Part shown: piece by piece, positions 5,702 through 62,324 of the stretch | Numbering within the stretch: position 1 is the first letter of the stretch | Layout: every line of letters begins with the position of its first letter | Assembly (NCBI GenBank): GCA_030141605.1 | Contig: JAQGDQ010000622.1 | Coordinates: 61,410 to 125,409 of the forward strand | Origin: Tubiluchus corallicola | Lineage: Eukaryota; Animalia; Priapulida | DNA: 64,000 nucleotides | Reading direction: 5' to 3' | The notes under the pieces: generated by a model | Database searches by the model: none | Told to the model about the DNA's origin: nothing | Seen by the model: only the letters and a program-made list of their open reading frames with translations | Made by a program: the position numbers and the translations under genes

Positions 5702-5758
<57 letters not shown>

Positions 5759-33900: not shown

Positions 33901-36900
33901 TTAAGTTTATATTTGACAATTTTTCTTTACCATGTGCAACAATGCAACACCTGTGAGCTTTTTAATGCCCATGCAGCTAAAGAGACTAGCTTGTTATTTG
34001 GGATTGCATAAAAAGGTGGAATTTTTGTCTTAAAATCAATGTCATCTTATCGTGTTTGGGACTGGTAGTTTATATTACCCAATTTTAAGATTTGTGTTTT
34101 TTTTATTAGTGTTTGTGACATTCCTAACTGAATTTTCAAAGCGTCTCTAGTTTTCTTGGTATTTTTTGATAATATTGCACTATTTCTATGTAGCCATCGT
34201 AACTGAGAGGTTCTATATATACCCCTTTCATTTGACAGATTTGTTTCTTTTCACGCTGTTGATAACAAAAACATATAAATTTAAGTAATTTCACGAATTT
34301 CTAAAAAACTGTTTCAGGTTCTACCAAAGTGAATAATGTCACAGTGACATCCGGCGGGTCCTTGTTTTTTGCAAAGAGTGAACAGAACGCAAACGGTGGA
34401 TACGTGGGAACAGTTAGAGATATCCGATTTTTTGCGAGAGCTTTGGACACTAAAAACATTAGTGAGCAAATCTTTTTTCTTGTATTGATAACGCACCCCC
34501 TTTTGGGGTTACACTCTAATGAAACAATAATCCACATTAATATTTCAGACAACGATATTCAAGAATAGTTTTTAGTTAAGTGGTTTGCATAGAAACAGTG
34601 ATATGTCTATTTAGTGAAGACTTATAACTATGAGAACAAGATGTCTTCAATTTGGGTTTTGTTTCATTGCTTATATGTATACATTAATTTGCATGCTGTT
34701 TATTTGCCCTTTGTTTTTTATGTTCTCCCGTGGCTTAATAAGATATTGAAGTCATTCCAGGATCTTGTTGTTTTACGTACCATTCGTTACTATTGTTTAT
34801 TCTGTGCTAAGACTTTCATTACTCAAAGGTACACTACCTAGAGTCGCCATTTTTTCAATGTAGACACCTCGGACAACGGAATATAAGGATACCGAACAGG
34901 GACATTGGTCAGCTTTACAATTATTTCTCAACTCCTATAGAGCTTTGGACTAGTTTCAAAATTTATTTGACAACTATTTTGCTAGTGTATGTGGTAGATG
35001 TGCACTGAGTATTTTTCGGAAAGTGAGCTGGTGAAAATATAAAAATACGTTCATGTCAGTAGCGTAAAAAGTATGTCAGCTAGAGAGACGAGACTTGATT
35101 GGCACCTGGGATATCAGCTTAAGCTACCGCATAGTCACTGTGACCAAAACCAAAAAGTCAAGGTCAATGGGCATTTACAAATTCCTTCTATAGCTTCTAA
35201 TAATTCAAAAATTACAGTATTTATGTGGTTAATAATAGGCTTTTGATAAAAAGGGCTAAAGTCAGCAAACCTTTTTTGTTTGCTGGTGTAAACACTGTAC
35301 AGATTACACCAATTTTTATTGCAGTGTAATATAATGTAACTTAATGTAATATTGCTGTTTCATTTCATAGTACTGTTCATGTTGCAGTGAATTACGTTAA
35401 CTCACAATTCATCACTTGGCTCATTCGTCTTGCAGAATCTTCAGTTTACGACTTTGTCCTAAACTCTTTTCTGGTTCGCATTTTATTTCTTACATTGCGT
35501 CGTAGATTCGCCATAGAGTCATTTTATTCATTTTAACACAATTCAAATTCCTGCTGGGAGAAAATGAGTTACTGCTCATGAAAAAAAACCTAATCTTTAT
35601 AGAAACACTTATTCTTTTTTAATATCAGCTTTTATAATACATAGGTAAACAGTTTTTTTATTAAACAGTTTTGTATGTAACTAAGCAGCAAAAATTGTCA
35701 AAATTTAGTCAAAAAGACAAAAAGTGTCACCTTTTAGCTAAATGTTTTGTTATTGACAGCTGAGCTGTATGACACTGGAAGGAATGCAATATTTCCGAAA
35801 GCCATTCCATTGCCAGAAAAGTTTCTGCACCGAAAGGTTTTGATATGTAATGGTACGTGCCAGTATTGATTTTTTACTCTCTTAAATTTTATATGTAATT
35901 CCGTCATTACAATTAGCCTGCATGAATGAATAATAGTAGTAACTGGCCACTTTAATTATTCAAGTTATGGATGTTATGGATGTCAGAGTTACCCTGCAAA
36001 ATATTTTTTGCATAGTTATAATCATAATTATTAGGTTATTATTCATGATGGTACAAGCACACAAAGAGAAAGCATAAATGCTGATACTGGTTAACCAACT
36101 GTAAGGGATGAACTTTGGGCTGTCATGATCGCTGGGAAACATGATAATTTAGCATTTGCGACATCTGTCTTGCAAGCAGAGGATCCCTGTTGTGTTCCAG
36201 CTTTTCCTGTTTTTCAGAACTTTTCAAAATTCAATTTATTGTGGTTTTGTACCATCATACATTGCACTGTGTTTAATAATTATATACTCAGTTGTTAATT
36301 CTTTGTTTGCTAAACACGCCTTGAGTCGGCGATAGTAGAGAGTTTCCGCTACAATCGCAGAACGCTTCTTCGTAAAATCATTAGTACCGCAGAACTCGCT
36401 TTACAATCACAATTACAATTACAATCGCAAGCTAATTGTAAGCTTAGTAGACAGTCAGCATCGACAGTTTCTGCACAGTTTCCAGCTAGGTAGTATCATC
36501 TTTAGTTTGTAACTGTGTGTTTTATTTTGTCTCGCTGTGTCTAAAAAATATAAATCTTCTAAACTCTTCAAAAGTTAGTCACTATAGTCAGCGCAGTCAG
36601 AGCAGTATAACAAAACACACCAAACGTGATTCTGACTGTGGCTGTAGTGACGCCATTTCAGAATCGCAATTTTTTGCTGTTTGATAGTGGCGGAAACTCT
36701 GTAGTACTAGATAAGTCATTGAGCCTGTAACAGTGATGCTTTTAGCTCATCTATTTTTGTTATAGTTATAATATTTCTGTTTCTTAAGTACTATTTAATT
36801 TTTCATTCCTTCAGCTTTGGTTACTTCTATGTCTTATATTTTTTAGCCGTCGTGAATTTTATTCTGTTTATGCTTTTTTATCAGTAGTGTTCATCTTTGG

Positions 36901-39654
36901 ATGTTCCTGCTCACCGATTACTGTTGTCTGGTTTGATTTCGTACGTCTTGGAAATTTCACTCAGGAAACAGTGAATAACGGCTTGCTTCACTTTTTTTGG
37001 GATGGAGGGAATGTGCTTGTTGTTTCTCTCTTCTGTATTCTCTTTTTAATTTAGTTGACTTTTTTTGCTAATTGCTACCACTTTGCCCCTTTTTTCTGCT
37101 ATTCTGCCTTCTTTTCCTTTTCAATTATTATCCTTTTCTTTATTGATTTCCAGGTTTCTTTTCCTTTTGTCTATTCTCACCTGTTTTCCCCACCTTCTTT
37201 TGTGTTTCTTTTATTTCATTTTCCATTTTCATTTTTATATGCACCTTCTACTTTGACTTCCTTCCCATCCATAGTTTATACTTTGCTTCCCTCTACCTCC
37301 TCATTTACTTTTCTAACGTGCTACACAGAATAATAGAAATTTACCTCTCCATTGTAGGTGTTTTGACTAATTCAGGATTACTTTGTGTCATATTAAACAC
37401 ATGTAGTTCGAATTTCGATTCTTAGTTTGTCTTCATTTTCGTTATCTTATTCTTTGAGTTTTATTCTCATCTCTCGGAACGCTTGATTTTTCTTTACACA
37501 ATGCTTTGTTTCAATATTGGCCTTCTAAAACATCACTGGTTTTCAACTTTTTCGATGCACCACATAATCAAAATGTTAAACAAAGAAAGCTCCATAAATA
37601 TCTATCTCTTTATATTGTTTATAGAAACTGGTGCATGTGAAAGCTTTCCCTGTCAGAATGGCGGCACTTGCAACAACCACGGAAACTACTACAGCTGCAG
37701 CTGTCCTCTAGGATTTTTAGGAAATCAGTGCGAGAAGATGGTGGGAAATTGTAGCTCTGTTCCTTGTAAAAATGGAGGAACCTGCCTAGAAGAGTCGGGC
37801 GTCAAAACTGCTTATCGTTGCCTCTGTCCAGAAGGCATTTTGGGACCCACTTGTGCTGTTAAACCTGAAAGAGCTACAGGAAAAGAACGGAGAAGTTTCA
37901 GCGCACCATTTTCCATGCGAACCACCAACGATTGCAGTGCATGCCAGAAATATGAGAAATGCATTCGAAGTGGTGAAGGTTACGTTTGTGTTTGTCCTGA
38001 GGGGTACACAGGTGATAGGTGCGAAAGCAATCTTGTAAGAGTTGCCCCAGAATTACGAATGCTCAGAACTGACAATTTTACCACTGATAAGTGCCACCCT
38101 AACCCTTGTCAAAACAGTGGCAGTTGTGTTCAGCGTGGATCTCCGTATGGTAGACAATACAACTGCTTCTGCACAGAAGGTTATACTGGTTACAACTGCG
38201 AGTACATTTTTGACATCAATAATAAATGTTCTCCTAATCCATGCCTAAACAATGGAACATGTGTTCCAGACGATGAAAGTTTCAGTTGCTCTTGTACAGA
38301 GAGATACATTGGGTCTTATTGTGAAGTGGAGGCAAGCATTATATCTCCGAAGATACTGCCTCTTCACCGTTCTTGTTTTACTGATCCTTGTCAAAATGCT
38401 GGGACATGCGTACAAGGTGGACAGAATTACAGTTGCTTATGTCTGGAGGGGTACAGTGGACGTAACTGTGAAGACTTTGTGGGCCTTCCATCCTCCACAC
38501 AGACGATTGTCATTGACAAGTGTATTCCAAATCCTTGCCGGAATGCAGGGACCTGCAAACAAAGTGGACAAAATTACACTTGTTTATGTCTGGAGGGGTA
38601 CAGTGGACCTAACTGTAAAAACTTTGTGGGCTTTTCATCCTCCACACAGACGATTGTCATTGACAAGTGTATTCCAAATCCTTGCCGGAATGCAGGAACC
38701 TGCAAACAAAGTGGACAAAATTACACTTGTTTATGTCTGGAGGGGTACAGTGGACCTAACTGTAAAAACTTTGTGGGCTTTTCATCCTCCAAACAGACGA
38801 TTGTTTTTGACAAGTGTATTCCAAATCCTTGTCAGAATGCAGGGACCTGCAAACAAGGTGGACAAAATTACAGTTGTTTATGTCTGGAGGGGTATAGTGG
38901 ACCTAACTGTGAAGACTTTGTGGGCTTTTCATCCTCCAAACAGACGATTGTTTTTGACAAGTGTACTCCAAATCCTTGTCAGAATGCAGGGACATGTGTA
39001 CAAGGTGGACCAAATTACAATTGCTTATGTCTGGAGGGGTACAGTGGGCGTAACTGTGAAAACCTTGTGGGCTTTTCATCCTCCAAACAGACGATTGTTT
39101 TTGACAAGTGTACTCCAAATCCTTGCCAGAATGCAGGGACATGTGTACAAGGTGGACCAAATTACAATTGCTTATGTCTGGAGGGGTACAGTGGGCGTAA
39201 CTGTGAAGACTTTGTGGGCTTTCCATCCGCCACACAGACATTTGTCTTTAACATGTGTATTCCAAATCCTTGTCAGAATGGTGGGACGTGTGTTCTCCAC
39301 AACAATGGGTCATATACTTGTGATTGCAGACTAGAATATGATGGCGCCACCTGTGAAAATAAATACATGCCCTGTGGCATCAACGTGGAAGAAGTCTTTA
39401 GCGATATGAACCGCGAAATTTTGCCCTGCACTACAGATGCTGACTGTCCAGGGAAACAACAGTGCTGCCCCGAATATGGATGCTTGCCATTGGCATATCT
39501 TTACACGTGGGAACGGATCATCGGAAGCTGGCAGAATATCGTTTATGTTGCTCTCGGTTGTGCGACTGCTATTGTCATTATAGCCGTGATTTGTGGTGGT
39601 TTAGTTTGTTTGTTTGGTAAAGTGTCATCCATTGTTTCACCGTCATTTAATTAA
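12848..39654 (+). CDS. Mosaic type-I membrane protein: SP-5xWSC-Kunitz-EGF-linker-pentraxin/LamG-12xEGF-WAP-like-TM (16 coding exons)
   Basis: 16 GT-AG exons (listed below) splice in compatible phases into one ORF from ATG 12848 to TAA 39652-39654. Domains were recognised by Cys spacing and motifs. Confidence 0.8.
13013..13496. mobile_element. hAT-like MITE with 6-bp TSD
   Basis: TIR cagggcttgtactc / gagtacaagccctg; TTAGTT on both flanks; internal tcctata repeats. Confidence 0.88.
13834..14136 (+). CDS. Receptor exon 2, WSC domain 1
   Basis: YYGCY...KCLLAC...YPYAGL...CSCGNSYGRYG...AVYDT. The donor is 14136 (phase 1) or 14140 (phase 2, paired with acceptor 15186). Confidence 0.85.
15176..15520 (+). 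CDS. Receptor exon 3, WSC domain 2
   Basis: FRGCW...DCIAVC...SCFCDG...CPRCG..GFCSG...AVYDT; donor G|GTAAGA. Confidence 0.85.
16695..17206. repeat. 51-bp minisatellite, about 10 copies, with alternating A/B units (102-bp dimer)
   Basis: Unit starts at 16769, 16820, 16871 ... 17177; taaagatg and taattatg variants alternate. Confidence 0.95.
17255..17530 (+). CDS. Receptor exon 4, WSC domain 3
   Basis: FVGCF...NCRIKC..GFYYAAIQ..NCLCGN...CAGANAIAVY; 276 nt, phase 1-1. Confidence 0.85.
17970..18403. mobile_element. hAT MITE with 8-bp TSD
   Basis: TIR taggggtgaacat / atgctcacctcta; GTACACAG duplicated; subterminal TTCGAA repeats. Confidence 0.88.
21110..21475 (+). CDS. Receptor exon 5, WSC domain 4 with basic insert
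   Basis: KLGCWND...GCSNRC..GFPYASL..FCNCG...CNIRC...TCGG; 366 nt, phase 1-1. Confidence 0.85.
22016..22678. mobile_element. hAT MITE
   Basis: TIR caagcttagagtc / gacaccaagcttg; TSD catttatc/cagttatc; subterminal aagtac repeats. Confidence 0.75.
23669..23794 (+). CDS. Receptor exon 6, WSC domain 5 N-half
   Basis: GTGCY...MTADMCVHYCYIR; donor G|GTAGGT. Confidence 0.8.
24951..25154 (+). CDS. Receptor exon 7, WSC domain 5 C-half
   Basis: GHKYAVLTGFTECRC...CDVACAG...YCGG...SIYRT; this frame is not in the ORF track. Confidence 0.85.
25188..25295. mobile_element. Short pogo-like MITE
   Basis: TA|cagtaattcctcgcttaa ... ttaagcgaggtcttactg|TA; a related left end lies at about 19914. Confidence 0.7.
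25540..25716 (+). CDS. Receptor exon 8, Kunitz/BPTI domain
   Basis: ICGMYMVKGYCKQKMDRFFYDIKAEKCIPFRYSGCKGNANNFLTFDNCIDAC: six Cys and the FxYxGCxGNxNNF signature. Confidence 0.92.
26249..26362 (+). CDS. Receptor exon 9, EGF domain
   Basis: DCKSSPCMNGGTCVQGQKCFSCICLPSFTGDVCQS; 114 nt, phase 1-1. Confidence 0.9.
27936..28055 (+). CDS. Receptor exon 10, Cys-containing linker (degenerate EGF-like)
   Basis: Strong pyrimidine tract and AG, 120 nt open, G|GTAACT donor; HCKQAGVC...SNCST. Confidence 0.65.
28850..29168. mobile_element. MITE family B copy 1
   Basis: atat|cttggtttgc ... gcaaaccgag|atat; shares cgtagtatgygggacttttaac and gtgaggtctggcaaacc with 47514-47848. Confidence 0.75.
29437..29558 (+). 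CDS. Receptor exon 11, start of pentraxin/LamG-like domain
   Basis: NCEW...VTFPELADAAYL...ITDFSVCM; phase-0 donor joins W of the next exon, giving FSVCMW. Confidence 0.8.
31288..31430 (+). CDS. Receptor exon 12, pentraxin/LamG-like
   Basis: WLQP...TLLSYASSDGNSEF (pentraxin TLFSYA motif); phase 0 to 2. Confidence 0.8.
31875..32235. mobile_element. pogo/Tigger-like MITE (family A), inverted partial copy
   Basis: TA|cagtaggcgtcgcttaata start; reverse-complement match to 120-473. Confidence 0.8.
33014..33129 (+). CDS. Receptor exon 13, pentraxin/LamG-like
   Basis: LADGAFHFFCFV...VEMWIDA (cf. DGxWHHxCxTW...YxDG); phase 2 to 1, donor GTAAGT. Confidence 0.8.
34318..34461 (+). CDS. Receptor exon 14, pentraxin/LamG-like C-part
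   Basis: SGGSLFFAKSEQ...YVGTVRDIRFFARAL...I; donor GTGAGC. Confidence 0.8.
35760..35852 (+). CDS. Receptor exon 15, linker
   Basis: ttattgacag| acceptor, TELYDTGRNAIFPKAIPLPEKFLHRKVLICN, G|GTACGT donor; phase 1-1. Confidence 0.65.
36338..36701. mobile_element. MITE
   Basis: TIR gagagtttccgctacaatc / gatagtggcggaaactctg; TAGTA on both flanks. Confidence 0.7.
37625..39654 (+). CDS. Receptor exon 16: 12 EGF + WAP-like + transmembrane helix + short tail
   Basis: Lies within the 723-aa ORF; acceptor tttatag| before ETGAC; 12 six-Cys EGF units; CTTDADCPGKQQCC; TM IVYVALGCATAIVIIAVICGGLVCLF. A possible donor lies at 39616 (G|GTAAAG). Confidence 0.9.
38368..39290 (+). repeat. 147-bp coding tandem repeat (49 aa, EGF + S/T linker), six copies plus a partial one
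   Basis: gacaagtgt recurs at 38515, 38662, 38809, 38956 and 39103; aacatgtgt at 39250. Confidence 0.95.
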
Positions 39655-40472
39655 TTAAGTGCTTTATTGCTGCACTGTTTACTCACATTTTAATTCCTAC
39701 ATCGCTGTGTTGTCATTAAGTGAAGTTATGATGTATAATTAATGAATTAGTGATTTTTTTCTTTGACAAATTTTACAATTCATGTTAGAGGATTATCAAT
39801 GTTTCTGATAAGTGCGGATTGTGTGAACAAACTGGACTAAATAATTTGTAACAGAATTGGGCGTTCTTGATTAAGTTAAATAAAATTAATAATTTTTTAT
39901 AACTTAACGTGTTGGTAATGCAAATTATCACTGGCTATGTTTTCACAAAAAGCATTTCAGAAAATGGTTTGGCTTATTTGAGTTTCGTGAGTCAGCCATT
40001 TTTAGAAGTGACTATTGAAACACTGCTTTTCCTCTCAAAAATTCATTCGAAGACGAAGATAAAGTCGGAGACAGTGTGGAACTCTGAGGAATACCGTCTG
40101 ACAAGAATATTATACAGCTGAATCTCAATCCTGCTCGGAAATTTATTCATTTGGAAGAGTTTTATTTATATAAAAAATAGGTGTTCTTGAGAACTTCTTC
40201 GAGTTATTGAACATTTAATTATGACTGTCATCAAGATAAATGTAATTATTGATAACTCATTATTTTAATTGACATGTTTGCTGTGTACAGCGTGTTGGTC
40301 TGCTGTCGCTTCCTACTTTGAAAAAGTAGGGTACACTTTGGTACAGGTACTAGGTTTTACTTCTAATTACTTCCTTAATACTCATGTTATCCCAGTTTTT
40401 TAGTGATAGCGGTAACGCTGCAAATGAACACATTCATTTGATGTTATGGAATCTAGTTGTTTTTAAATCTAG

Positions 40473-43400
40473 ATGAGGGTGCATGTCGCTCCAATCCATG
40501 CTTGAATAATGCAACTTGTGTACATGATTCGAATACGTACAACTGCTCCTGTACACCAGGTTTTTCAGGACAGTACTGCCAAGGTGAGAGAACTCTCCAG
40601 ATGAATTGTTTGCTTATGTAATAAATGCAGAATTAATGCTATTAATGGCAATTTACATGGGCCTGATTTTATAGGTTACAAGGCCCAGTTCTTATAGACA
40701 TTTTCTTCATTTGTGAGCAGGCTGTGAATGTTATGAAATTAATGTTAAAAATGTTAAACTAAGATTGAGATTGTATTAATCTTTCATTTCACTTTCATAT
40801 ATATATATATATATATAGCATCTGCATTGTTAATCAAGTAATTAAAGTATGTAATATATATATATATATATATTACTTTAATTACTTGATTAACAATGTA
40901 GATTTATATATGCTCAAATATATTCGCTGCTAAGAATCATTTTATTTCCTAATAAAACTAATAGTACATGTTACTGCTCTTTTATATTCTATTTAGCTTA
41001 ACAGTATGCTACTTCTTGTATAACATAACTGTTGTATCAATATTTAGTTTATGATCATTGTGCGTCTAAACCATGTTTAAATGGTGCAACTTGTGTTGGC
41101 GGATTGGATGAGTTCAACTGTAGTTGTGCACAAGGTTTTTCTGGAACAAAGTGCGAGTTGGGTAAACTCATTTATTATTAATAATATTGTAGACTTATAA
41201 ACTTCAGTTCTATCTTACATGTCAATAATGTTAGGATTCTTCCTAGTAAAAATTAATTTCATTATTATAACCCGTAAATTATCATTTCCTTATGCTTTCA
41301 TTAAAACTCTAATTTTAATTGCGGTTGTTCTTGTGGTTTAGATATTGATGAATGCGAATCCAATCCCTGCTTGAACAATGCAACTTGTGTTGATTATGTG
41401 AACGGCTATATCTGCTCGTGTGCTGAAGGCTTTTCTGGGCTATATTGTGACATCGGTATGGTATTTCTTTTACTGAATGTTAATACATTATTAGTATGTT
41501 CCTAACTTATATCTTTTCCAGTAAGTTTATTCGTTACAGTTATTTTGTAGGGTTTGCCAAAGATAAGTAAGTTAAATTGAAATCACTATAAAATGCAGAA
41601 GTTTATTTCAAAATGAAAAATGTTGTACTTTAAATAAATTAGTAAGACTTAGAGTTATGTGATCAGTACAAATTATGATGCACACATTTTAACAACTAAG
41701 AAACTACTAACAACTTGTAGATATTGATGAATGTGAGTCAAATCCTTGTTTAAATGGTGCAACTTGTGATGATGGACTGAACTTTTATGAGTGCAAGTGC
41801 GTGGACGGTTTCTTGGGAGAATACTGTGAGATAGGTTTGTATCTTCGAATTAGATACATTTCTTGGGGTTTTTGTGCATTTCTTTCTACTGTATAGTATG
41901 TTTTCAAAATAGTTCTTATATGGTTTTATGCAAGATTTTCTGAATTTGTTTTCATTCAATATTGTGGAAAAGTCTTAATTAGAACCTTGGGATTTCGCAT
42001 AGCAATGTTGAGGACTACTGAAAAGCAATTGTTAAACTTTTTAAATTATAAGCTACTCATAAATTCTTGATATGGATGATTTAGCGATTTTATGATTCAG
42101 TGAGTACTTTGTGACACCAATCCCTAAAGCAGTGGATGCCTTTAGATTGACATCTTTCAACATAGTATAGTCTGCTCTTTTAACAAGAATGTGGCTATAG
42201 TAAGACACAACACAGCAATATTGGACATTTCAACAATAATTGTTCTTATTGTTTTTTTTTTAAATTCAACAACATTTAGAGCTACTGACCAGTTGCACTC
42301 TAAATTGAAATTAGTATATATGCAGCTGTGCTATTTATTCCTTTAATACTTAATATTGTTGTAATAAACTATGTATCTTACTTAGATTTCAACGAGTGCA
42401 AGTCTAACCCATGTTTAAATAAGGCAACGTGTGTTGATCAAGTCAATTCGTACAACTGCAGCTGTGCACAGGGCTTTCTAGGAATAAACTGTGGAATAGG
42501 TTCGTCTCATTTTATTTCAATTTTAGAAACTGAATCCCTAGATTAGTTCCATATGCAGGCACTCGTCCATCACTTAATTTTACTGACTTCGGTGTTTTTT
42601 ATGACATTTTCTAGATTTTGATGAATGTTCGTCTGAACCATGCTTAAATGGCGGCACCTGTGTCGATCGTTCGAATGCGTATGATTGCGTTTGTGCACAC
42701 GGCTTCACTGAAGAACATTGTGCAACGGGTATACTTCCTGCTGTAATTTGCCAAGTAAAATCTACGCATTACTAATTGCTTATCTTAGAGCTAGCAAAAT
42801 CATTCTTAGCTGTTGTCAAATTTTAAGTGAACTTCCTTCATGAGAAGAGGTAAGTTAATGATTGGTGTGGGTTCAGTACTAAGACTGGTCGATCTTTATC
42901 AGTATCCTCTGTCAATTCTTATAATTAATTCTCACAGAGACATTTCAGCTTTAACATGAAATCTTAAAATGCTGCACTAAATTAGTTACGTAAATTTCAC
43001 TCAAATTCATTTTAAATATATGACTGCAATTAAAGATTATCGATATTATTTTTGCTTGGAAATATAAACACATTCAAGTTAATAGAAAAAATCTGAATTG
43101 TCACTTCAGGGATTGAACCTATAGTTCGCTGACACTGAATCAGACTTCATAACATTTTCACTATTAGCTCACTTAGAGACCAAACTCTTTTGAGTCAAAC
43201 CTTTAGTTAATAATTAGAAAAACATCTCTCTTATTACAAGTGCTGAACAAACAAAATTGACTGCTCAAACAGTTGTGTGTTTTGTGCTATTAAACATCGT
43301 GGCAATGCAGCCATTCTATATGTTATCAACAGACCCATAGGGTCATCTCACTATTGAGTTAATAATGTGATGCATCACTTGAAGCAGAGTCCTTCAATGA

Positions 43401-49400: not shown

Positions 49401-52400
49401 ATGTAAAAAATGTGATTTGAGGTAATTCAGACACACCTAAATTAGTAGTTAGGTTTTGTACAAAGCAAAACACTTTGGAGCACCTGTGAATATCTTTACT
49501 TAAAATGCTGATTGGCAGTCATTTAAAACAATATGATGATGTCAAGTTTTTACTCAAATGATAAAGCCTGAACTTAATGAAATTCCTTTTTTGTGTCACC
49601 AGTTTATTTTCAACAGTCCAACAAGTAAAAAATGTTTTCCACGCTATTAGCAAATTTTAAAAGAATGTTTTTTGGAATACACATAATTTTTTTCATCTCT
49701 AAGTGAAATGTTTCGTTGTTTTTTACAAAGTTATAAGATCTAAATATTGTTGATCGAATTTCAGATTTTGATGAATGCCAGTCGAATCCTTGTTTTAATG
49801 ATGGAACTTGTATTAACGGTTTGAATAAGCATGATTGCATATGTTTTGAAGGTTTTACTGGACTTTACTGTGAAACAGGTAATTATGCATACTGTGTTTT
49901 TTCCTGCAATGTCCTAATAAGAATGGAGAAAGGATTACAAAACAGTTAATAATTTATTAAACATAATAAAGCACATGTCTTTACAGAAATTAATATTATT
50001 TCATGACTACCACTTATGAATGTATAATAGTGAATCTGAATAGTTTTATCTGTTTGTGTATCGCACTTTAGACATTGATGAATGTGGATCCAATCCGTGC
50101 CTAAATGATGCAACATGTATTGATGTTTTAAATGGCTACAAATGTATATGTAAACCAGGATTTTCTGGAGAGAATTGTATAATTGGTATGTTTTTTCTTG
50201 TGTTTTTTTAGTTAAGGACGACTATGCATGTCTAACTAATAAATATTTGACTAATATACAAATTTAATGTACAAACGTACAAATTATCAGTAAACTGATA
50301 AATATTACTGCTACAATTGCAACTGTAATTTCGTTTTAAGGTTGAATGTGACAATAGCCTCTTGACTTATGTACTTGAAATCAATAATTGATACTCAGTA
50401 ATACTTGATTTGCTTTTGAGAGCTATATTAATGTTTTTTATACAGTAGACGCCGCTTAATAGACACACTTTGGGACCGAAGTGTCTGGACCCATTAACCT
50501 ATTAACCGATGGGTAGTATTACTGGTATAGAAAGTATGAGTCATCAGCTTAGTATACACTGCAAAGGTTTTTAATGAATTTTAGAAATGAAGTAGTGCCT
50601 AAATTCCTTGTGCAGTTAAAAATTTTAAAAAATATTTTAAATATTAATTCATATAAGTGAATTAGCAATTAATTAAAAAGTATACTTTTCTAAATTACAC
50701 AAGTCTGTTTATTTGCAAACGTCACCGTACCTGCATCAGTGACTGTTAACTGATTAAGCGTAAAAGGGTGATTTGCAACAAGAGATTCAAAAGGAAACTG
50801 CTAGACAACTGATTAAACGTTTAGCTTCCAGAAATTCTTGGGTAACGAAAGTTAATTGTTGTGGACGAGCGGGTAACACATTCAAAGCAAAAGTTACGTT
50901 AGCATATTAGCGCATGATAAACGTACCTGTTTACAAACAAAACGGTACTTAACGTGATTGTTTTTACATATATTATAGTGCAGAAAAGTGAAGTAAAGGT
51001 GACATAAAAGTAGGAAAGGCTTTTTGGGCACATACAAATGTCTTATTTTAAGTACGCTAAGGAAAAATATTGAATCAACTATGCTGAGTTATTTGAGTCA
51101 ATTACCGACAGTTTTTATGTATATTTGAATAGAAGCGGCCCGTACCAGGCGTTTTTGAGTCAATTAAACAATTGAGTTTATTAACTGTGAGTCTATTAAG
51201 CGGCACCTACTGTATTTAGATATTGGTGAATGCGGATCTAACCCCAGCTTAAATAATGTGTCATGCATTGATGGTTTGAATGGCAATGAATGCATTTGCA
51301 CAGAGGGCTTTTCAGGAATGTACTGCAGAATGGGTAGTGTTAGGTATAGGATATTGAGCGTGAAAACAAGACTAGCACATCTCTACATTGAAGTACCGGA
51401 TGGTGTAGCTCAATAGTAGCTTGCTTGCTTACCACCCGGGAGGTCGTGGGTTCAACTCTCGACTGAGACTTGAAAAATGGTATTGCTGGTTCTTCGACCA
51501 AGCACGCAGGTTAATCAAAGTGACGTGCGGGTAGTAATAGTCGGGACCACCTTGGAAATAAGTATTGAGTTACTTAAGGTGTTATCCTTGGTCTATGTCC
51601 TAAACGAAATTATTTATGTTATTGAGTCAGCACAGCATAATTTCTTAATGTGGTTCCAAAATCTAACAATATTTATGATATGTGTGAAAGTTAAAAGGGG
51701 AAGAATTAAAGTATATCTAAAAAACCTCCCGCACAAAGTTATATTACTTTGCATTACACTTACCTGTACCAATTTAAAATATTCGCACCATCTGGTAAAA
51801 CTGCTGGAATCGCTATCCCAAAGTGCACCAATCAGTCACCAAAAAAGACATTGATTTCATTGACAATATAATGTAATTTAAACTGTTTCTTAGTCGAGTG
51901 TGCTACAAATGCTTTGGTTATTTTTTCAAACTTTACACGATGTCATTTATACTTATTCCAAGTGACTTAATTACCCTCAAAATGGCTGCATCTAAGAGTC
52001 ATCGCGGGAGTTTAAATTTAAAAGTTTTATGCAGCCTTGCTTATAATGGTTGCACTATGGACGATGATACAGCCAGTAAGTGATACAAAATTTCAAGACC
52101 TGCTTTGACATGGTTTTTGTATTAATGGTGTGAATGAATACAAATGATATGTGCACAAGGGTTTACTGGACTATATTGTCAGATAGGTATTTATAACATT
52201 TTCTTTATTTTATATGTATTTATGCGAAATTGTATAAATGACTGAAAAAATTAATCATAAGCAATCTATTTGTTCACCTATATGTGGTTAAGCCAGAATA
52301 GATTGAACATGTGATCTAACTGTCAGTTTACTTCAGAGATTGACGAATGTGCATCTGACCCATGTCTAAACGGTGCAAGCTGTTTTGATGGTGTGAATGA

Positions 52401-55400
52401 GTACAGCTGCAATTGCACACAAGGTTTTTCCGGACCCCAGTGCTTAATAGGTACAGGTTTTTTGTTTTATATTTTTAAGTACGAGTTAAAAAAAGTTGTG
52501 TGTAATCAAAGTTAAATCCTAACAAAACAAAAAGCAAAACAAAGCATTAATCCCTCAAATTATTCTTCAGAATGTAAAAAACACAATAGGAACAGCTAAG
52601 CCATCACAGTGCAGGTCTAGCTAGCAAAGTAAGGCATCACTAAGCAGAGTGAGTTAGTGAATTTATGACTGCCATGGAAATTTAAACTGATTCAGTACAT
52701 TTTCATCTGCCCCTGACAAGGGTGTAGCATCAGTAGATAGTTAAGACAACGTTGTAAGTTCCATGTCTCGCTTTATGTATTTTGTATTTTTCTAGGTTTC
52801 ATTTACATTAAAAAAGTTTGGCCCTGAACTCATTTCCACTTTGGATTTTATTTATTTTGTTTGTGTCTTAATTGGGTGCATAATTAATGCATGTTCAAAT
52901 AAATTGTCTGATAATTCTGTGTTAATATTTACTCTTTATGTAAATGAAATCCAGATGTTGATGATTGTGAGTCAATGCCTTGTTCAAATGGTGCAACTTG
53001 TGTTGATAGTTTGAATGCCTACACCTGCTTCTGTGCACAAGGTTTTTCAGGACCACATTGTGAGAAAGGTATGAAGATTTGTGTAACACGATGATACATG
53101 TAAGAACTTCAACTTCTGCTGATTTTAACCAGTGGAGGATTTACATAGCAACAAGTAATTGAGCAATTAGTATGAAAGACTGAATTCAGATAAAAGAGGA
53201 TATAGTAAATCAGCGAATACTCTTTTGAATAAGATACTTGTTTTTGGTACACGTGAGCATTTGTAGTTAAAGGAAAACCAGACCCATTCTTAAACTATAA
53301 CTCAAAAACAATTTAGTCTATGAAATATTAAATGGGAACATGATATTTTTCACTTTTTTTCAAGAGTGAAAGAATTATTACCACAAAAACTAATTTTTAG
53401 TTTGTGTGACTCATTCTTCGCTGTTACATCTATATCGCCGTTTAAAAGCTTGTGTTTAACAATGGTAAACTTGAAATTTGAATTTTACAGTTAAAATTTG
53501 CTGTCTTTCATGTATCACACTGAATGTTGTACAGTAAAATTGTGCCTATTTTCGCTTTCGCAAACACGTGCAACACGTTCATGAAATGTTTGTGCTGTTA
53601 ACAATTATATTCAGTTGTGTTGTCATCACTAGCTGTGCACGCCTGCCATTAATTAGGGTTTTAACCTTTCACAACATTACCAGAAATGATTTGGCATTAT
53701 TATAGGTGTCAAAACGTATACTTTACCGTACTTTAAAATATACCCGGATATGAAGAATCTTCCTCTTTTCCTTTAAAATGTTGCTTAAGAAGACAGCCAG
53801 CAAATCAGTAGAAATAGAATGCTTTGAAATCGGTTGCAAAAATGTTACTAAAAATTCCTTGTCTGCTAATATAACCTTTTGGTCATCAAGACTTGTTGCT
53901 CAGTCGCTCTTGTTTTCCCATCCTGGTCCTGATAAGTTTGAAAATATCTACCGCTTTTTCAGTAAAATTTCTTTTTTCATGTCACAGTATTTTCAACTGT
54001 GCAGCAAATAAAACATGTTTCTAAAGTTAATTTTTGTAAAATGTCCATTTTAGTAGAAGTTTTCAGCACAGTTAAAAAATTAATCGTGTAAATAACAGAG
54101 AACAATATGAACTTTAATTTCTGCAGCTTATCGCTGTTGTTTGAATTTCAGATTTTGACGAATGCCAGTCGAATCCTTGTTTTAATAATGGAACTTGTAT
54201 TAACGGTTTGAATAAGTATGATTGCATATGTTTTGAAGGTTTTAGTGGACTTTACTGTGAAACAGGTAATTACGTACACTGTGTTGTTGTTAGTAAACAG
54301 AAAATGTAAAGCAAATAATAATCAAGCAAACCTGATTGTAAATGTCATTGTAGAAATAGACATTATTTTCTGACAATGATAGAATGTGTCTATGTAATGA
54401 CAAGCGTGCAGTACAGCAGAAGTCAGTTAATAAATCTAGCCACTTATTGTGGCCACTACAGCTGCAGTGGAGCAAGACAATATTTTAGGTTTGCAAAATT
54501 CGTTATTTTTAGAGCCAAACTCTGTTTTAGAAAAACCACATTAAGTATGGGTTTTAGACTTAAAGTAACTGTAACAACTTGACATATATACTGCTTGTTG
54601 CCAATTATTAGCTACGTAATTGCTAGTTAGTCAAGGCAAAGACTGTTTTCATAATACTTCAATTAAGTTATTTAACAGTTAGTTTCATTATGAGTCGAAT
54701 ATGTAATCCAAGAGGCTAGAAACCCTATGAATTATTTTTATCTGTGGCACCATTAGTGATGTGAGACAGTGACAAAGCCATGCTACATTTTAGAAGCTTT
54801 TTCTGTACATGTTAACAAAGTGCCAACAAATTAGCTCACAGTCTGTCATGTCGAAAAAGTATTATGTGGTATGTAACCTAGTAGATCCTCGGTTTTATAG
54901 AGCCAGGCACTTCATACCAAGGTGCATTTATTAATCAAGGTGTGTTGTAATAAATTTACATATCTTGTTTTTTTTATCTATTTCTGTATTGCACTTTAGA
55001 TATTGATGAATGTTGGTCTAATCCCTGCTTAAACGATGCAGCATGTATTGATGTTTTAAATGATTACAAATGTTTATGTAAACCAGGATTTTCTGGAAAA
55101 AACTGTTCTGTAGGTATGTATTTCTCTTGTATTTTAGCAAAGTCTGTTGTTCTACTGTAGCTGTTGCAAAAAGGTTTAGCAAAGCTAGTAAATTTGTTTT
55201 ATGGGTGTAATGTCCAAGCTTAATTATTCGTCAGTAAACTGACCAAATGTTTGAACTCTACATGTGAATCTCAGTTTGATGTTAAGGTTGAATGTGCCTA
55301 GTGAGCATTTTTATGCTAAAACAGCAAACTGACTGGTATCTGAAAATTTTAAATCTACCTCTTTACAGTCACTTCTTTGATGCTTGCAAAGTGTTTAATC

Positions 55401-58400
55401 AGATCAGTTATGTTTAGAAACTAACACAGTGTGACCTTGCTGCTTCAATTTCCTGCCATAGCTTGCTGTACCGTTGGTACACGAATAAAAAATTTGTGTT
55501 GTTTGTGAGGCCTGTATTTCTAAAGACATAAGCATTAGTGTAAAGGCATGAAACAAGGCAATATTTCTGTATATTATTTTAATATTGACATGATTGGTTT
55601 TATCTATAAGCCTTAATAGTCTTACTAGTGTTAGCGTGACATTAGAGGGCCGTTCATTCGTTCTTATCGTTGTCAAACGTACGTTAGTTATCCATGCAAA
55701 GCTTTTTGTTTAAATTTTTAGATACTGAAAAGCTCTGCATAATCTTAGAATCTGGCAGTGTTCATGGCTGAGTGGGCATGTGCATGTTTTGCATGAATCA
55801 CTTATAATAGCCTAGGTTCGATGCTCATCCTGAGTAGTTTTGTTCACCGTACTGATTCTGGCAGTTTATCTCGTAAAGCGAGGATGTATATAGATGTGAA
55901 CGTGACTCTCACTTTTAGTGCTTCATTTTAAAGAGAGAGAAAGATGCCCATGACAGTGGGTCAGGGTGTGGTCACACCACAAACATGCTGAAGAGGCTTT
56001 GCAGTTTAATTCTGGAATCCAGCTTATCATAATTTATGCTTGGCATTTCTCTAATTATTAACTATTAAACAACTATTAATGTAACTTCAGAAATTGATGA
56101 ATGTGAGTCCAAACCGTGTCTGAATGGTGCAACTTGTGTTGATGGTCTGAATGCATACCAATGCATCTGCCCGCAAAGTTTTTCTGGAATACATTGTGGA
56201 GTAGGTATAAGCTTTTTAGCTTTTCTTACTGATTGAAAACAGTTTTTTATTTGCAAGCTACGTTAACTCTTTTGTGGGCAAATTAATGTGGTTTTTCATA
56301 AAAAAATGGGCAAATAGAATTTTTGAAGATATGTATTGTTACAGAATCGTTAGAGCTTTACAGAATAGTGTCTAAAAGTACATAAAAAATTAAATTATGT
56401 TTACTATCACTTACCTGTCTATGTTTTGACCATATACACTAGACCCTTTTTCAACTAGGACTAGCGCTGGATCCAGTTACAGCTATGTCACCATCACTAA
56501 AGTGCTGACTATTATTACTGTTGCCTGTTTTGCCTATTTGTGCTCAGATGTATCAAGAACACTTACAATGCCTGCATCAGTCACGTTTCCAAGTGTGTTA
56601 ATAGATGAAGTACAATGTATGTGAAAATCATTAGTATTTACTATTGCCTGTTTTGCATATTTGTTCTTAGATGTATCAAGAACACTTACAGTGCCTGCGA
56701 CAGTCACGTTTCCAAATGTGTTAATAGATGAATGTCAGTCAAATCCTTGCTTCAATGGCGCTACCTGTGTAGATGTTTTCAATGCATACTATTGTGCATG
56801 CGCTGAAGGGTTTTCAGGGCTAAACTGTGAAATCGGTACGTGTGAGCTATTTTTAAAGCAAAAGTCAAGTCTCGTGGGAAGTCAAGCTTATTTTAATGTT
56901 TGAGAAAAATATTAGAAAGTTTCAGCAATAAAATTGTGATAAGCACCTCATGTAATTAGTAAAACCAAATTCAAGTCTCGATCACTTCACCCTTTGGTGC
57001 GCTGTTTTTAGACGAAAAATGGCGCCATCCGGTTTCCGTACAATATAAACACTTATCCTGACAGTTGCTTTAGAATGTTTTCTGGACTTATAGTGCGAAC
57101 TCTAGAAGCTAAGTAACCTGCCCGACATCTGCCTTGTGCTAGAAGCTAAGTAACCTGCCCGACATCTGCCTTGTGCTAGAAGCTAAGTAACCTGCCCGAC
57201 ATCTGCCTTGTGCTAGAAGCTAAGTAACCTGCCCGACATCTGCTTTGTGCTCGAAAGTTTTGATGCATATCTGAAAGTCAACAAAAATCTGTAAATTAAT
57301 TACTTACACAATTAATGTACACTACTTACACATTTTAAGATGTAATCCTGTAGATTAAGGCAATGTAATCACTTTAAATTTGATCATAATTGATCCAATG
57401 ACTAATTTCTGGATAAACACAGTTAAATGCAGGAATGTAGAAATTTTGCAATGCGTACCTTCAGACAACTTTCTTTCACGGTATTCATGCTGCCCAGCAG
57501 TCACTGCCTTACTTCATTTTTTTCAAATATGCCGGCAGTGGTATTCGTTTGGCGGGAAATAAGACGTAGTTATTGTAAATTTCCTTTACATTTTTAAATT
57601 TACGTTTTTAAACGAAGCATTCTATGCGCATATTTTGTGTATTGATTTCAATCTTTTTAGTTGTATATTGAAATGCAATAAATGTTGTACGAGGGTTGGT
57701 TCTTCCTTTAAGTCTTTCAAGCGATTATAAACACCCTTACTAACGCACTGTTTGAAGCAAAAATTTACGTTTTAATGCTATTATTCGTATGCTATGTAAT
57801 ATTTGTAATAGGTGACTATTGGGAGTGAGGAGTTTAAGTAGAATGGAAAAGTTTGGAAGTGGAATGCCGTGGAACTGAGTGGAGTGAAAAATTCCAGATA
57901 GTAGAATAGAATAGGGGTATAGTAGTAGATTACAGTAAAAAGCAGATCAGAGAAGAACTGCACAACATAAGAAGGTAAGGAAATTAGATTTGGTTAAAGG
58001 AAAAGAGCTAGAGGAAGTAGGGATGTGAACAATAATGATACAGATTGATAATTATCGATTATCGTATTGATGCATAAAATTTGTTTTTATCATTAGCGTA
58101 TCAATATTATTCTAGGAATATGGTTATTGTATTGAATTTGGCACGATTGCTTACGCTTACCTTTATATAAAGTTGCTTCACTTTTCTTTTCTACTTATTT
58201 ACAGTAATTACTCAAAGAAATGGATAAAAAGAATTATTTAATATTTGATAAGGTTATCAGACGCTGGAACATTTTCTTAGACTTTTGCCTGGCAATAATG
58301 GCTATCTTCATTCTGATTCATACCAAGACGGATAGAGACCCCTTTACACACTTAGATACTGATGCGCGGAAATCAAATACACTGTACCGAATTTTTAGCG

Positions 58401-60096
58401 TCACTTTCCCACTCATGTGCAGCTCGTTTGAATATATTACTTATATATTTATTTATGAATCATTATGACAAAAGAAACTTGCATTTTATACCTAGCAGCC
58501 ATTTAAGTATGCAGCACTGAATCCACTGAAGCACTTAATAATTTTAATTATTAATGATTCTACTTCTGTCTAACTTCACTATTGTTTTTATCGTTCGAAA
58601 TAATTTATCTTATTGCGTCATCTAAAAATAGTTTGTCGTTATCATATCTCCGAATTTGTATCGTTTAACATCCCTAAGAGGAGAATGGCGCAGAATAGAG
58701 TAGTTGGAAGAATAGAAAAGACTGCAACTTGAAAAGAAAAGCAGCAGATTAGAGTGAAATAGAGTTTAGTAGGAAATAAAGAACATGAATGAAGCGGAGT
58801 GAGAGAAAACAACAGAGATGAATTCCATACAGTGAATAGAATAGAGCAGCCACTATGCCAGACAGCATTCGTATTCGCAATGTACATTCGCATTTCTAAT
58901 TTGTTGTTGAATTCATTTTAGAAATCGACGAATGTAGGAGTAATCCGTGCTTAAACAACGCAGCTTGTGCTGATGGTTTAAATGCATACACTTGCTCTTG
59001 TTTGAAGGGGTACTCGGGAACACATTGTGGAGTAGGTATAAACTTTTTTATCTTTTGTTGATAATTAAATAACATGGAACATATTTGTTGTTAAATTTAA
59101 ACTTGCAATATTTTTTATTTGTTTCTGCTGTTTGCTATTAGTATTATTAGCGATTTCCTCGTTTTTAAAGGAAATTGATGAATGCGACTCTAATCCTTGC
59201 TTAAATGGGGCAACTTGCACTGATGGATTGAACAGGTATGACTGTACCTGCAGAGAAGGTTTTACTGGAATTGACTGTCATACAGGTAAGCGTTTCTCAT
59301 ACCGCACTTATTCAGAGAAGATTTGTTTGATGCTCATTAACTTAATGTGTCCAAAAAATTGAAGTTGTTAATAAACCTACTTATTTAGTATCAAAATCAA
59401 GAAAGCAATAATTATAGGTTCTGTTTCACTTGTTAGCATACATTCTATGTATCTTATTGTTAAAGGAAAACCGGATTCAGTTTAAACTATAGCTCAAAAC
59501 AATCTACACTGTAAAATATTGAAAAGGAACATGTTGCTCTTCTAATAATGACTTATGTGAAAGAATTATTACCACAGAATGGCAATTTTGCATTCGCACA
59601 GCTAGCTCGTTGCTGCTACATGCATTTTGCCATCTGCTAGTTAGATGGGCACTAAGGCGTGTATCTCGAAACAGTTTCAAATATCGATTTCAAACAAGCA
59701 GATTCAATCCATTCAAAAATATGATATGTGTGTATCTATAAATAAATATATCAGGAGAGTTAGTATATAGAGACGACAATCTTTCTTGATAAAATTTTTA
59801 CAACTCAGTGACTCATCACAAATATGGTGTCACACTTGCATCAAACTCATCGTAGACTAATTCAACAGAAATTAGCAGGCATTTTAGACAATAATTAACT
59901 ACTTATTAGCCCACCACAAACAGTTAAATTTGCTGGAATGTCATTATAGATTCTTTGATAAGATTGTTTTATTGAATAACAGAATTGAATGAATGCGGGT
60001 CCAACCCCTGCTTAAATAATGGAACTTGCACTGATCAATTGAATGGCTATGACTGTACATGTGCACAAGGCTTTACTGGAAAAGACTGTGATATTG
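40473..60096 (+). CDS. Array of 27 single-EGF phase-1 exons (fibropellin/Notch-like cbEGF), probably continuing beyond the LINE
   Basis: Exons E1-E27: 40473-40583, 41048-41161, 41342-41455, 41721-41834, 42386-42499, 42615-42728, 43816-43929, 44480-44593, 45027-45140, 45863-45976, 47311-47424, 47938-48051, 48592-48705, 49184-49297, 49765-49878, 50072-50185, 51220-51333 (damaged), ~52099-52186 (pseudo), 52337-52450, 52955-53068, 54152-54265, 55000-55113, 56091-56204, 56671(or 56728)-56835, 58922-59035, 59172(or 59151)-59285, 59983-60096. Consensus DIDECxSxPCLNxAxCxDGxNxYxCxCxxGFSGxxCE. Confidence 0.9.
40820..40903. repeat. 30-bp inverted repeat around a (TA)n loop
   Basis: atctgcattgttaatcaagtaattaaagta / tactttaattacttgattaacaatgtagat, 1 mismatch. 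Confidence 0.9.
46597..47235. mobile_element. Old hAT-like MITE
   Basis: cagtggcatagcta / tagctatgctgctg termini; GC-rich subtermini; TSD eroded. Confidence 0.6.
47514..47848. mobile_element. MITE family B copy 2
   Basis: ctcggtttgtcag ... ctggcaaaccaag termini; homologous to 28850-29168. Confidence 0.75.
50443..51212. mobile_element. pogo/Tigger-like MITE (family A), complete
   Basis: TIR cagtagacgccgcttaatagac / gtctattaagcggcacctactg; TA on both sides. Confidence 0.9.
51220..51333 (+). pseudogene. Damaged EGF cassette exon E17
   Basis: [38 protein letters not shown]: Cys2 lost (AGC), D to G, Y to N; a MITE sits in its acceptor tract. Confidence 0.75.
51398..51600 (+). mobile_element. 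tRNA-derived SINE
   Basis: A-box-like tagctcaatagtag and B-box-like ggttcaactct at tRNA spacing; no clean cloverleaf; 3' end approximate. Confidence 0.6.
52099..52186 (+). pseudogene. Decayed EGF pseudo-exon E18
   Basis: cctgc...tgtattaatggtgtgaatgaatacaaatg-atatgtgcacaagggtttactggactatattgtcagatag|gt: 5' end missing and a 1-nt deletion in a Cys codon. Confidence 0.8.
56511..56732 (+). repeat. 123-bp-spaced tandem duplication of an acceptor plus linker segment
   Basis: ttgcctgttttgc..ag|atgtatcaagaacacttaca..gtcacgtttccaa.tgtgttaatagatgaa occurs twice (exon starts 56548 and 56671). Confidence 0.9.
57102..57251. repeat. 37-bp minisatellite, 4 copies
   Basis: ctagaagctaagtaacctgcccgacatctgccttgtg at 57102, 57139, 57176 and 57213. 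Confidence 0.95.
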
Positions 60097-62006: not shown

Positions 62007-62324
62007 GTCTGAGGGTCCACTTCCTTTATTTATATTTAAACTGTTTAATATTCGGTGACGCTGGTAAATGAGAAAGTGGATTGTGTTACTGATTGGTTTT
62101 TGTATATATTGTGTATATTTGCATTATGTTGGCGTGGCAAGTTGTCAAATTTTCCGAGATTGCTAAATGTGGAATTTAATTTGTTAGCAATGTCAACTGG
62201 ATCAGATATCATACTGTCATTTTCTCGTAAGCTGTTTATTTGTAATTGATTGTTTCTGTATCTGTTAAGTACGTCATTAATTAATCGCCATTTTTGCTTA
62301 GGTGTAGTTGCATCATTGCATTTA

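What the first reader, a model, noticed from the sequence alone, without database searches (positions are those of the whole stretch)
35760..60096. One receptor head with two alternative stalks: a TM-anchored single-exon stalk versus an array of at least 27 EGF cassette exons
Seen: after linker exon 15 (phase-1 donor) comes exon 16 (12 EGF, TM, stop, AATAAA at 39879). About 820 bp after the stop, phase-1 EGF exons begin with no visible ATG/signal exon. The first cassette begins DEGAC, echoing ETGAC at the start of exon 16 and unlike the DIDEC-type start of E3 onward. Splicing exon 16 (donor 39616) into the array would place disulfide-bonded EGFs in the cytoplasm, which is implausible. Inference: exon 15 splices either to exon 16 or to E1. 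Every intact cassette is symmetric and frame-preserving, so any subset could be skipped, giving a glycan-sensing head on a stalk of tunable length and composition.
Basis: partly seen in the sequence, partly recalled or inferred. Interest (0 to 1): 0.88.

Follow-up and report, generated by a model that had tools for sequence, protein, structure and literature searches.

The report
Receptor gene with two candidate stalks
An animal gene for a predicted sugar-binding surface protein ends in a membrane-anchored EGF stalk and is followed by a second run of 27 one-module EGF exons that likely serves as an alternative stalk, but no RNA was found to show this splice or any mixing of the modules.

Summary
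The anatomy is real. Fifteen exons splice to a 905-aa open head: signal peptide, WSC-type modules, Kunitz, EGF, LamG/pentraxin-like domain. Exon 16 adds 12 EGF, a WAP-like piece, a transmembrane segment, a stop and AATAAA. 819 nt after the stop, 27 EGF units begin: 25 keep six cysteines, two are decayed, two have shifted acceptors. Three older duplicate pairs show purifying selection (dN/dS 0.16-0.30), so the array has been coding.

Best reading (0.55): alternative 3' ends of one gene, with exon 16 a skippable terminal exon. Support: compatible phase, no intact leader exon in the gap, little room for a promoter, and a weak GA-C echo. Main rival (0.27): a separate downstream EGF gene; a signal-like exon with one stop lies 126 nt before E1, but such look-alikes also arise by chance.

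Combinatorial skipping is unsupported: 11 of 14 non-first head exons are equally symmetric, no docking or selector signal was found, and tandem exons are mostly constitutive. No RNA run, ortholog or array end was available. Verdict: a new variant of a known kind, unproven.

The parts
12848..12914 (+). Exon 1 (coding part), predicted signal peptide, phase 0-1
   Evidence: hydrophobicity 2.3
13834..14136 (+). Exon 2, WSC
   Evidence: Pfam E 4.7e-7, above cut-off
15176..15520 (+). Exon 3, WSC-like by cysteine pattern
   Evidence: open frame; no Pfam hit alone
17255..17530 (+). Exon 4, WSC
   Evidence: Pfam E 2.4e-5, below curated cut-off
21110..21475 (+). Exon 5, WSC
   Evidence: Pfam E 4.9e-9; Atlas 0.95
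23669..23794 (+). Exon 6, first half of a WSC-like module
   Evidence: no Pfam hit alone; spliced region aligns to WSC proteins
24951..25154 (+). Exon 7, second half of the WSC-like module
25540..25716 (+). Exon 8, Kunitz
   Evidence: Pfam E 6.6e-17
26249..26362 (+). Exon 9, single EGF, 114 nt, phase 1-1 like the cassettes
27936..28055 (+). Exon 10, small cysteine-containing spacer
   Evidence: open frame
29437..29558 (+). Exon 11, predicted start of LamG/pentraxin-like domain
   Evidence: open frame; assignment by position
31288..31430 (+). Exon 12, LamG/pentraxin-like
33014..33129 (+). Exon 13, LamG/pentraxin-like
34318..34461 (+). Exon 14, LamG/pentraxin-like
35760..35852 (+). Exon 15, last common exon, phase-1 donor (score 7.7)
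   Evidence: covered by an X1 DNA contig with 0 differences
37625..39654 (+). Exon 16 coding part: 12 EGF without calcium-binding leads (six in a ~147-nt internal repeat), WAP-like piece, TM, 11-aa tail, TAA
39538..39615 (+). Predicted transmembrane segment (26 aa)
   Evidence: 19-aa hydropathy up to 2.6
39616..39622 (+). Possible phase-1 donor at the end of the TM; score 4.7, reached by roughly 8% of GT sites; probably unused
39879..39884 (+). AATAAA with a GU-rich stretch 20-60 nt downstream
40274..40346 (+). Signal-like ATG-to-donor segment, in phase with E1, with TGA at 40319; chance look-alike or decayed leader
40473..40583 (+). E1, 111 nt, non-calcium EGF, GA-C lead
41048..41161 (+). E2, EGF, partial calcium consensus
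41342..41455 (+). E3
41721..41834 (+). E4
42386..42499 (+). E5
42615..42728 (+). E6
43816..43929 (+). E7
44480..44593 (+). E8
45027..45140 (+). E9
45863..45976 (+). E10
47311..47424 (+). E11
47938..48051 (+). E12
48592..48705 (+). E13 (closest to E19)
49184..49297 (+). E14 (closest to E20)
49765..49878 (+). E15 (3 differences in 102 nt from E21)
50072..50185 (+). E16 (closest to E22)
50443..51212 (.). High-copy inverted-end element flanked by TA, ending just before the E17 acceptor
   Evidence: X1 depth 2,300-6,700; ends read
51220..51333 (+). E17, decayed: five Cys, calcium lead and aromatic lost; AG/GT kept
52111..52186 (+). E18, frameshifted remnant (recognisable part)
52337..52450 (+). E19
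52955..53068 (+). E20
54152..54265 (+). E21
55000..55113 (+). E22
56091..56204 (+). E23
56728..56835 (+). E24, 108 nt from a shifted but in-frame acceptor
58922..59035 (+). E25
59151..59285 (+). E26: nearest AG is one base out of frame; an in-frame AG at 59151 adds 7 residues
59983..60096 (+). E27, last unit seen; the array's end is not in the window
60453..63500 (-). LINE-type element (endonuclease and reverse transcriptase frames), probably inside the intron after E27

Best explanation
One gene likely has two alternative 3' ends: its head (signal peptide, WSC-type modules, Kunitz, EGF, LamG/pentraxin-like domain) splices in frame to exon 16, a predicted terminal exon for a membrane-anchored 12-EGF stalk, and likely also, by skipping exon 16 and its poly(A) site, to E1 and a mostly constitutive run of about 25 predicted calcium-binding EGF exons. 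Shown: open frames for both joins, domain content, splice-site phases, purifying selection among older duplicates, and decay of single cassettes. Inferred: that either junction is used; that exon 16 is the default because its acceptor scores higher; that the choice is a competition between poly(A) use at 39879 and splicing, as in calcitonin/CGRP; that the array forms a longer, stiffer rod; that the head binds glycans. The array grew by exon and block duplication. Dead units (E18, probably E17) would be spliced out, which is turnover over evolutionary time and not evidence of regulated mixing.
For: Head plus exon 16 gives 1,581 aa; head plus 26 units gives 1,897 aa with no stop. The array is under constraint: E13/19, E14/20 and E16/22 have dN/dS 0.29, 0.30 and 0.16, and 25 of 27 units keep six Cys. 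It needs an N-terminal secretion signal (six-Cys EGFs; O-glucose motif in 25 of 26, O-fucose motif in 16 of 26), yet no intact ATG-to-phase-1-donor leader with a hydrophobic core lies in the 818-nt gap. Only about 570 nt separate the poly(A) region from E1, in a gene whose median intron is 1.34 kb and whose divergent neighbour's ATG is 6.4 kb away. E1 is the first unit of its run (no calcium lead) and shares Gly-Ala before Cys1 with exon 16's first EGF; 0 of 508 non-calcium EGF units in the retrieved proteins have that pair, about 1% expected. The gap resembles neither exon 1 nor the neighbour's leader. Skipped terminal exons tend to carry a canonical signal (PMC3647115, passages).
Against: Exon 16's acceptor outscores E1's (7.4 against 2.5 on a noisy matrix trained on 14 head acceptors), so E1 use needs active skipping. 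E1 ranks only 8th of 26 array units in identity to exon 16's first EGF; it is 72% like E3 and 50% like that EGF, and the tree does not join them. The GA-C codons are two point changes from the usual GAT GAA, so parallel origin is possible. A non-calcium first EGF is also normal at a protein's start (118 of 120 first EGFs), so it does not favour one gene over two. A signal-like segment with a phase-1 donor sits 126 nt before E1. No X1 contig bridges exon 16 to E1.
Confidence: 0.55

Rival explanations
1. Two genes: the receptor ends at exon 16, and the array is a separate Notch/fibropellin-like EGF protein with its own leader. The leader would be the 40274-40346 segment (a null allele or base error here), or a split or unrecognised leader.
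For: 40274-40346 has an ATG, a hydrophobic core of 2.57 (exon 1: 2.3), 45% GC (top 5% of intron 73-mers) and the gap's strongest donor, in phase with E1. The same scan recovers the neighbour gene's real leader as a positive control. Exon 16 has a stop, AATAAA and a GU-rich stretch. E1's non-calcium start fits a first EGF.
Against: The segment holds TGA at codon 16, while the array is nearly intact, so it would need a rare fresh null. Look-alikes arise by chance: 4 others in about 120 kb of both strands (about 3% for an 820-nt gap), and a looser scan finds intact ones in head introns, such as 13521-13587 and 30372-30417. Donors of that score occur 1.08 times per kb in head introns. Promoter, 5' UTR and leader would have to fit in about 370-570 nt.
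Confidence: 0.27
2. The array is the old 3' end of the gene, cut off when exon 16 and its poly(A) site arose upstream, and is now silent or barely used and starting to decay.
For: Exon 16 is a single 2-kb exon in a gene otherwise built one module per exon. Four units (E17, E18, E24, E26) are damaged or have shifted acceptors. The youngest pair, E15/E21, differs by 3 non-synonymous and 0 synonymous changes (too few to test).
Against: Damage is concentrated: 23 of 27 units have canonical AG/GT, length and six Cys, while E17 and E18 carry several lesions each and lie next to a transposon insertion. That fits loss of single exons in a living gene better than uniform decay.
Confidence: 0.1
3. Other arrangements: exon 16 is internal and its 39616 donor joins a cytoplasmic exon beyond the array; or an internally started type II form uses the TM as a signal anchor for the array; or the adjacency is an assembly join.
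For: 39616 is the only fair phase-1 donor at the TM end and is in frame with E1. The 11-aa tail has a single lysine. No X1 contig covers 39850-40548.
Against: The donor score is ordinary and is produced by Gly-Lys codons. Candidate tail frames in the gap are no longer than chance gives (61% of 820-nt intron windows have one). A hole in contig cover proves nothing.
Confidence: 0.08

Closest known systems
Skipped terminal exon / coding-region alternative polyadenylation, as in CALCA calcitonin/CGRP (PMC3647115, passages)
   Same: A common exon can join a proximal terminal exon with its own stop and canonical signal, or skip it for downstream exons, giving different C-termini.
   Different: Here the swapped parts would be whole extracellular stalks of 675 and at least 990 aa; use of the distal path is not shown.
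C-terminal substitutions from tandem duplication, as in NECTIN2 and FBLN1 (PMC8373072, passages)
   Same: Two related multi-module C-termini chosen by alternative poly(A); NECTIN2 swaps a TM-containing end.
   Different: One end here is a single 2-kb exon of non-calcium EGFs and the other at least 27 one-EGF exons; specific homology of the two starts is weak.
CD97/ADGRE5 EGF isoforms and CD44 variant stalk exons (PMC9101421, PMC4443741, passages)
   Same: Skipping of EGF exons (3-5 repeats) or insertion of stalk exons under a glycan-binding head changes a receptor's ectodomain.
   Different: Those isoforms are shown in RNA and share one TM exon. Here skipping is unshown and the array would replace the TM exon.
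Notch/Crumbs/fibropellin-type calcium-binding EGF arrays (best database hits, 27-36% identity to exon 16)
   Same: Six-Cys EGF units with calcium, hydroxylation, O-glucose and O-fucose motifs (motifs recalled), one unit per phase-1 exon.
   Different: None of the 120 listed hits carries a WSC or Kunitz family. The closest WSC plus EGF protein, Mactra antiquata KAL4222352.1, interleaves the two and has no Kunitz hit.
Dscam1 mutually exclusive arrays (PMC8373072, passages)
   Same: A long array of similar tandem exons in a surface-protein gene.
   Different: No docking or selector complementarity above control introns and no intron under 115 nt; the units look built to be strung together.

Membership tests
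Skipped terminal exon / coding-region APA (CALCA type) | Common upstream donor in frame with both acceptors | tested here: met
   Both joins are open: 1,581 aa and 1,897 aa
Skipped terminal exon / coding-region APA (CALCA type) | Proximal exon with its own stop and poly(A) signal | tested here: met
   TAA 39652 and AATAAA 39879; GU count matched by 5 of 38 non-coding AATAAA, itself included
Skipped terminal exon / coding-region APA (CALCA type) | Both junctions seen in RNA | not testable with these tools
   No RNA holder listed
Skipped terminal exon / coding-region APA (CALCA type) | Distal path has its own terminal exon | not testable with these tools
   Outside the window; no genome held
Tandem-duplication C-terminal substitution (NECTIN2/FBLN1 type) | The two ends are specifically homologous | tested here: inconclusive
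   Shared GA-C lead, but E1 ranks 8th of 26 for exon 16 EGF1 and the tree is unresolved
Dscam-type mutually exclusive array | Docking/selector complementarity | tested here: not met
   Best 8-mer complement in 3 of 25 array introns against 4 of 25 for two control introns
Dscam-type mutually exclusive array | Steric exclusion by very short introns, or frame exclusion | tested here: not met
   Shortest intron 115 nt; units are 3n and phase 1-1
CD97/CD44-type cassette skipping | Frame-preserving symmetric exons | tested here: met
   26 of 27 units have a 3n, phase 1-1 form; so do 11 of 14 non-first head exons
CD97/CD44-type cassette skipping | Weaker splice sites than constitutive exons | tested here: inconclusive
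   Donor match 5.8 against 6.4 of 9 (p 0.15); pyrimidine tract 0.62 against 0.70 (p 0.011), units not independent
CD97/CD44-type cassette skipping | Skipped isoforms in RNA | not testable with these tools
   No RNA holder listed
Calcium-binding EGF tandem array | D/E-x-D/N-D/E lead and C-x-D/N-x4-Y/F motif (recalled consensus) | tested here: met
   Lead in 22 of 26, hydroxylation motif in 21 of 26; exon 16 has 0 such leads
Separate secreted EGF gene (fibropellin-like) | Own intact signal exon | tested here: not met
   None intact in the gap; one look-alike with a stop. Split or non-coding-first leaders are not excluded
LamG/pentraxin domain in the head | Profile match | tested here: met
   Local profile of 57 inter-EGF segments: 17.1 bits, E 9e-5, best of 501 including 500 shuffles; single exons give no LamG or pentraxin Pfam hit
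WSC glycan-binding lectin (fungal WSC3) | Binds long beta-1,3-glucan | not testable with these tools
   WSC family met for 3 of 6 exons scanned; binding known for a fungal protein (PMC7816849, passages)

The most novel reading that the evidence does not exclude
A single invertebrate lectin-like receptor head is switched, by poly(A) choice, between a flexible membrane-anchored 12-EGF stalk and a rigid calcium-binding EGF rod of at least 25 modules whose length and make-up are varied by regulated exon skipping, giving a family of same-specificity sensors with tunable reach.
Probability: 0.14. Interest if true: 0.78.

Novelty: new variant of a known kind. Interest (0 to 1): 0.45.

Why it matters
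If the 35852>40473 junction exists, one putative glycan-binding head would be shown at two very different distances from the cell, or anchored versus released, by swapping a whole stalk. That extends calcitonin-type and NECTIN2-type end-swapping to a block of about 1,000 residues, and lets the role of stalk length and stiffness be tested with the binding site held constant. The domain string was not found in the searches run here. If the array is a separate gene or constitutive, this is ordinary exon-shuffling growth of an EGF protein.

Tried and rejected
RNA: no RNA holder listed. The guessed-RNA run X2 gave 9 partial pieces on 33000-52900, on repeats plus one short EGF match whose flanks are unlike this locus, and 0 pieces on 39400-41500. 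This is a blank, not evidence.

DNA run X1 does not cover 39850-40548, so the TGA at 40319 could not be checked for another allele.

No whole genome is held, so the array's end was not read.

Ortholog searches found none: exon 5 by word index (0 of 28 candidates); exon 5 by HMMER (105 hits, none matching the Kunitz, LamG or TM parts at E 0.01); exon 16 (120 listed of 2,841, generic EGF proteins); metagenome contigs (0 of 304 and 0 of 73 stretches); PDB for exon 14 (0). The neighbour gene gave no taxon (0 of 202; Atlas unreachable), so the animal group is unknown.

Rejected: a hairpin hiding the AATAAA (z -0.86); a spliced cytoplasmic tail in the gap (matched by 34 of 56 control windows); docking/selector pairs and shared intron motifs; similarity of the gap to exon 1, to the end of intron 15 or to the neighbour's leader (p 0.24, 0.94, 0.85); a phase-1 donor at an EGF boundary inside exon 16 that would join part of it to E1 (none at a module end among 17 listed).

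Papers: no paper on this domain set among the hits (1 unrelated listing). Searches returned 0; two searches gave listings only, none read. Fibropellin features are recalled, not checked.


Full report
Setting. The window is AT-rich (about 34% GC), intron-rich animal DNA; no whole genome is held and the animal group was not identified. A + strand gene starts at ATG 12848. Fifteen exons with AG/GT ends splice into 905 codons without a stop. Pfam finds WSC in exons 2, 4 and 5 (two above the curated cut-off), Kunitz in exon 8 and EGF in exon 9; exons 3 and 6+7 are WSC-like by pattern only. A local profile built from 57 inter-EGF segments of Crumbs, EYS and related hits matches the region of exons 12-14 at E 9e-5, ahead of 500 shuffles. 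Exons 11-15 therefore most likely form one LamG/pentraxin-like domain, and exon 15 is its end, not a linker.

Exon 16. It opens at 37625 in phase 1 and reads 676 codons to TAA 39652: 12 EGF units without calcium-binding leads, six of them in an internal ~147-nt repeat, a weak WAP hit, a 26-residue hydrophobic segment and an 11-residue tail. AATAAA lies at 39879 with a GU-rich stretch behind it. Neither is rare: 0.94 AATAAA per kb, and 5 of 38 non-coding ones have as many GU words. X1 DNA contigs confirm exon 15, the exon 16 acceptor and the TM-stop region with 0-2 differences each.

The array. A DNA profile finds 27 EGF units from 40473 to 60096. Of the 26 with a readable exon, 25 have six Cys, 22 the calcium lead, 21 the hydroxylation motif, 25 the O-glucose motif and 16 the O-fucose motif (motifs recalled). 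E18 is a frameshifted remnant. E17 has five Cys, and a high-copy element ends just before its AG. E24 and E26 need shifted acceptors. E13-E16 pair in order with E19-E22, a block duplication; three pairs give dN/dS 0.29, 0.30 and 0.16, and the fourth differs by only 3 nt, all non-synonymous. The array has therefore been coding, and decay is confined to a few units. After E27 comes a LINE, and the array's end lies outside the window.

How does the array get a signal peptide? No intact hydrophobic leader ending in a phase-1 donor lies in the gap. My post-hoc scan puts such a segment at about 3% for a gap of this size, and a looser scan finds intact look-alikes in head introns. Donors of that score occur about once per kb. 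A real but broken leader on an otherwise intact gene would need a rare fresh null, so I count it as a modest lead for a separate or once-separate gene. X1 does not cover the site.

The echo. Gly-Ala before the first Cys occurs in 0 of 508 non-calcium EGF units among the proteins, about 1% expected from single-position frequencies. That is the best positive sign that E1 and exon 16's start both follow exon 15. Against it: the codons are two changes from the usual GAT GAA; E1 is 50% identical to that EGF, 8th of 26, against 72% to E3; and the 32-column tree resolves almost nothing. A non-calcium first unit is also expected after a signal peptide (118 of 120).

Mechanism. I commit to alternative 3' ends (0.55). 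Exon 16 would be a skippable terminal exon: its stronger acceptor (7.4 against 2.5, noisy matrix) and canonical signal make it the default, and skipping it joins exon 15 to E1. This is the splicing versus polyadenylation competition described for CALCA; skipped terminal exons tend to have canonical signals (PMC3647115, passages). Duplicated 3' ends chosen by poly(A), including the TM-containing NECTIN2 swap, are known (PMC8373072, passages). The products would carry one head on a linker-spaced stalk or on a longer calcium-stiffened rod (stiffness recalled); whether the rod is anchored or secreted is unknown. Glycan binding is inferred from fungal WSC3 (PMC7816849, passages).

Combinatorial skipping. 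I put regular, regulated skipping at about 0.2-0.25. Symmetry is no sign of it: 11 of 14 non-first head exons are phase 1-1 too. There is no docking or selector signal above controls and no intron under 115 nt. Array donors are not significantly weaker (p 0.15); pyrimidine tracts are slightly weaker (p 0.011), though the units are not independent. Most tandem-duplicated exons end up constitutive (PMC8373072, passages). Precedents for skipping exist in CD97 (3-5 EGF) and the CD44 stalk (PMC9101421, PMC4443741, passages). If the array is transcribed, E18 must be skipped.

Novelty. No ortholog or same domain string turned up; the nearest WSC plus EGF protein is differently built. These searches used single exons and miss distant or very long relatives. 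No supplements were read, and none bears on a claim. The mechanism is of a known kind, the architecture and scale look lineage-specific, and the key junction is untested. Interest 0.45.

Noticed in passing
window 1491-6419, minus strand: A divergently transcribed multi-exon gene with a signal-like first coding exon (ATG 6419) and tectonin/Hyd_WA propeller hits (E 4e-5 to 8e-3), a probable lectin next to the WSC receptor.
   Followed up: partly
window 49748-49901 and 54135-54288: E15 and E21 are 93.5% identical over the exon and about 20 nt of flank with 0 synonymous differences, while neighbouring block pairs have pS 0.33-0.44 and the introns no longer align; this suggests recent gene conversion.
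   Followed up: partly
window 38384-39293: Six EGF-plus-linker units of about 147 nt inside exon 16 are 88-93% identical, a young expansion within one exon; its copy number could vary between individuals.
   Followed up: no
window 50443-51219: A high-copy TA-flanked element ends just before E17's acceptor, displacing its pyrimidine tract; a likely cause of that cassette's decay.
   Followed up: partly
window 56560-56727: A short duplicated sequence replaces the acceptor and first codons of E24 yet supplies an in-frame AG, and E24 keeps its core consensus.
   Followed up: no
window 30372-30417: An intact signal-like ATG-to-donor segment in intron 11, out of phase with exon 12; treated as chance and used as a null example.
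   Followed up: partly
window 45242-45373 and 54691-54822: A 132-nt intron segment is present twice at 94% identity, out of register with the exon block duplication.
   Followed up: no
window 60453-63500, minus strand: LINE with endonuclease and reverse transcriptase frames split in two.
   Followed up: partly
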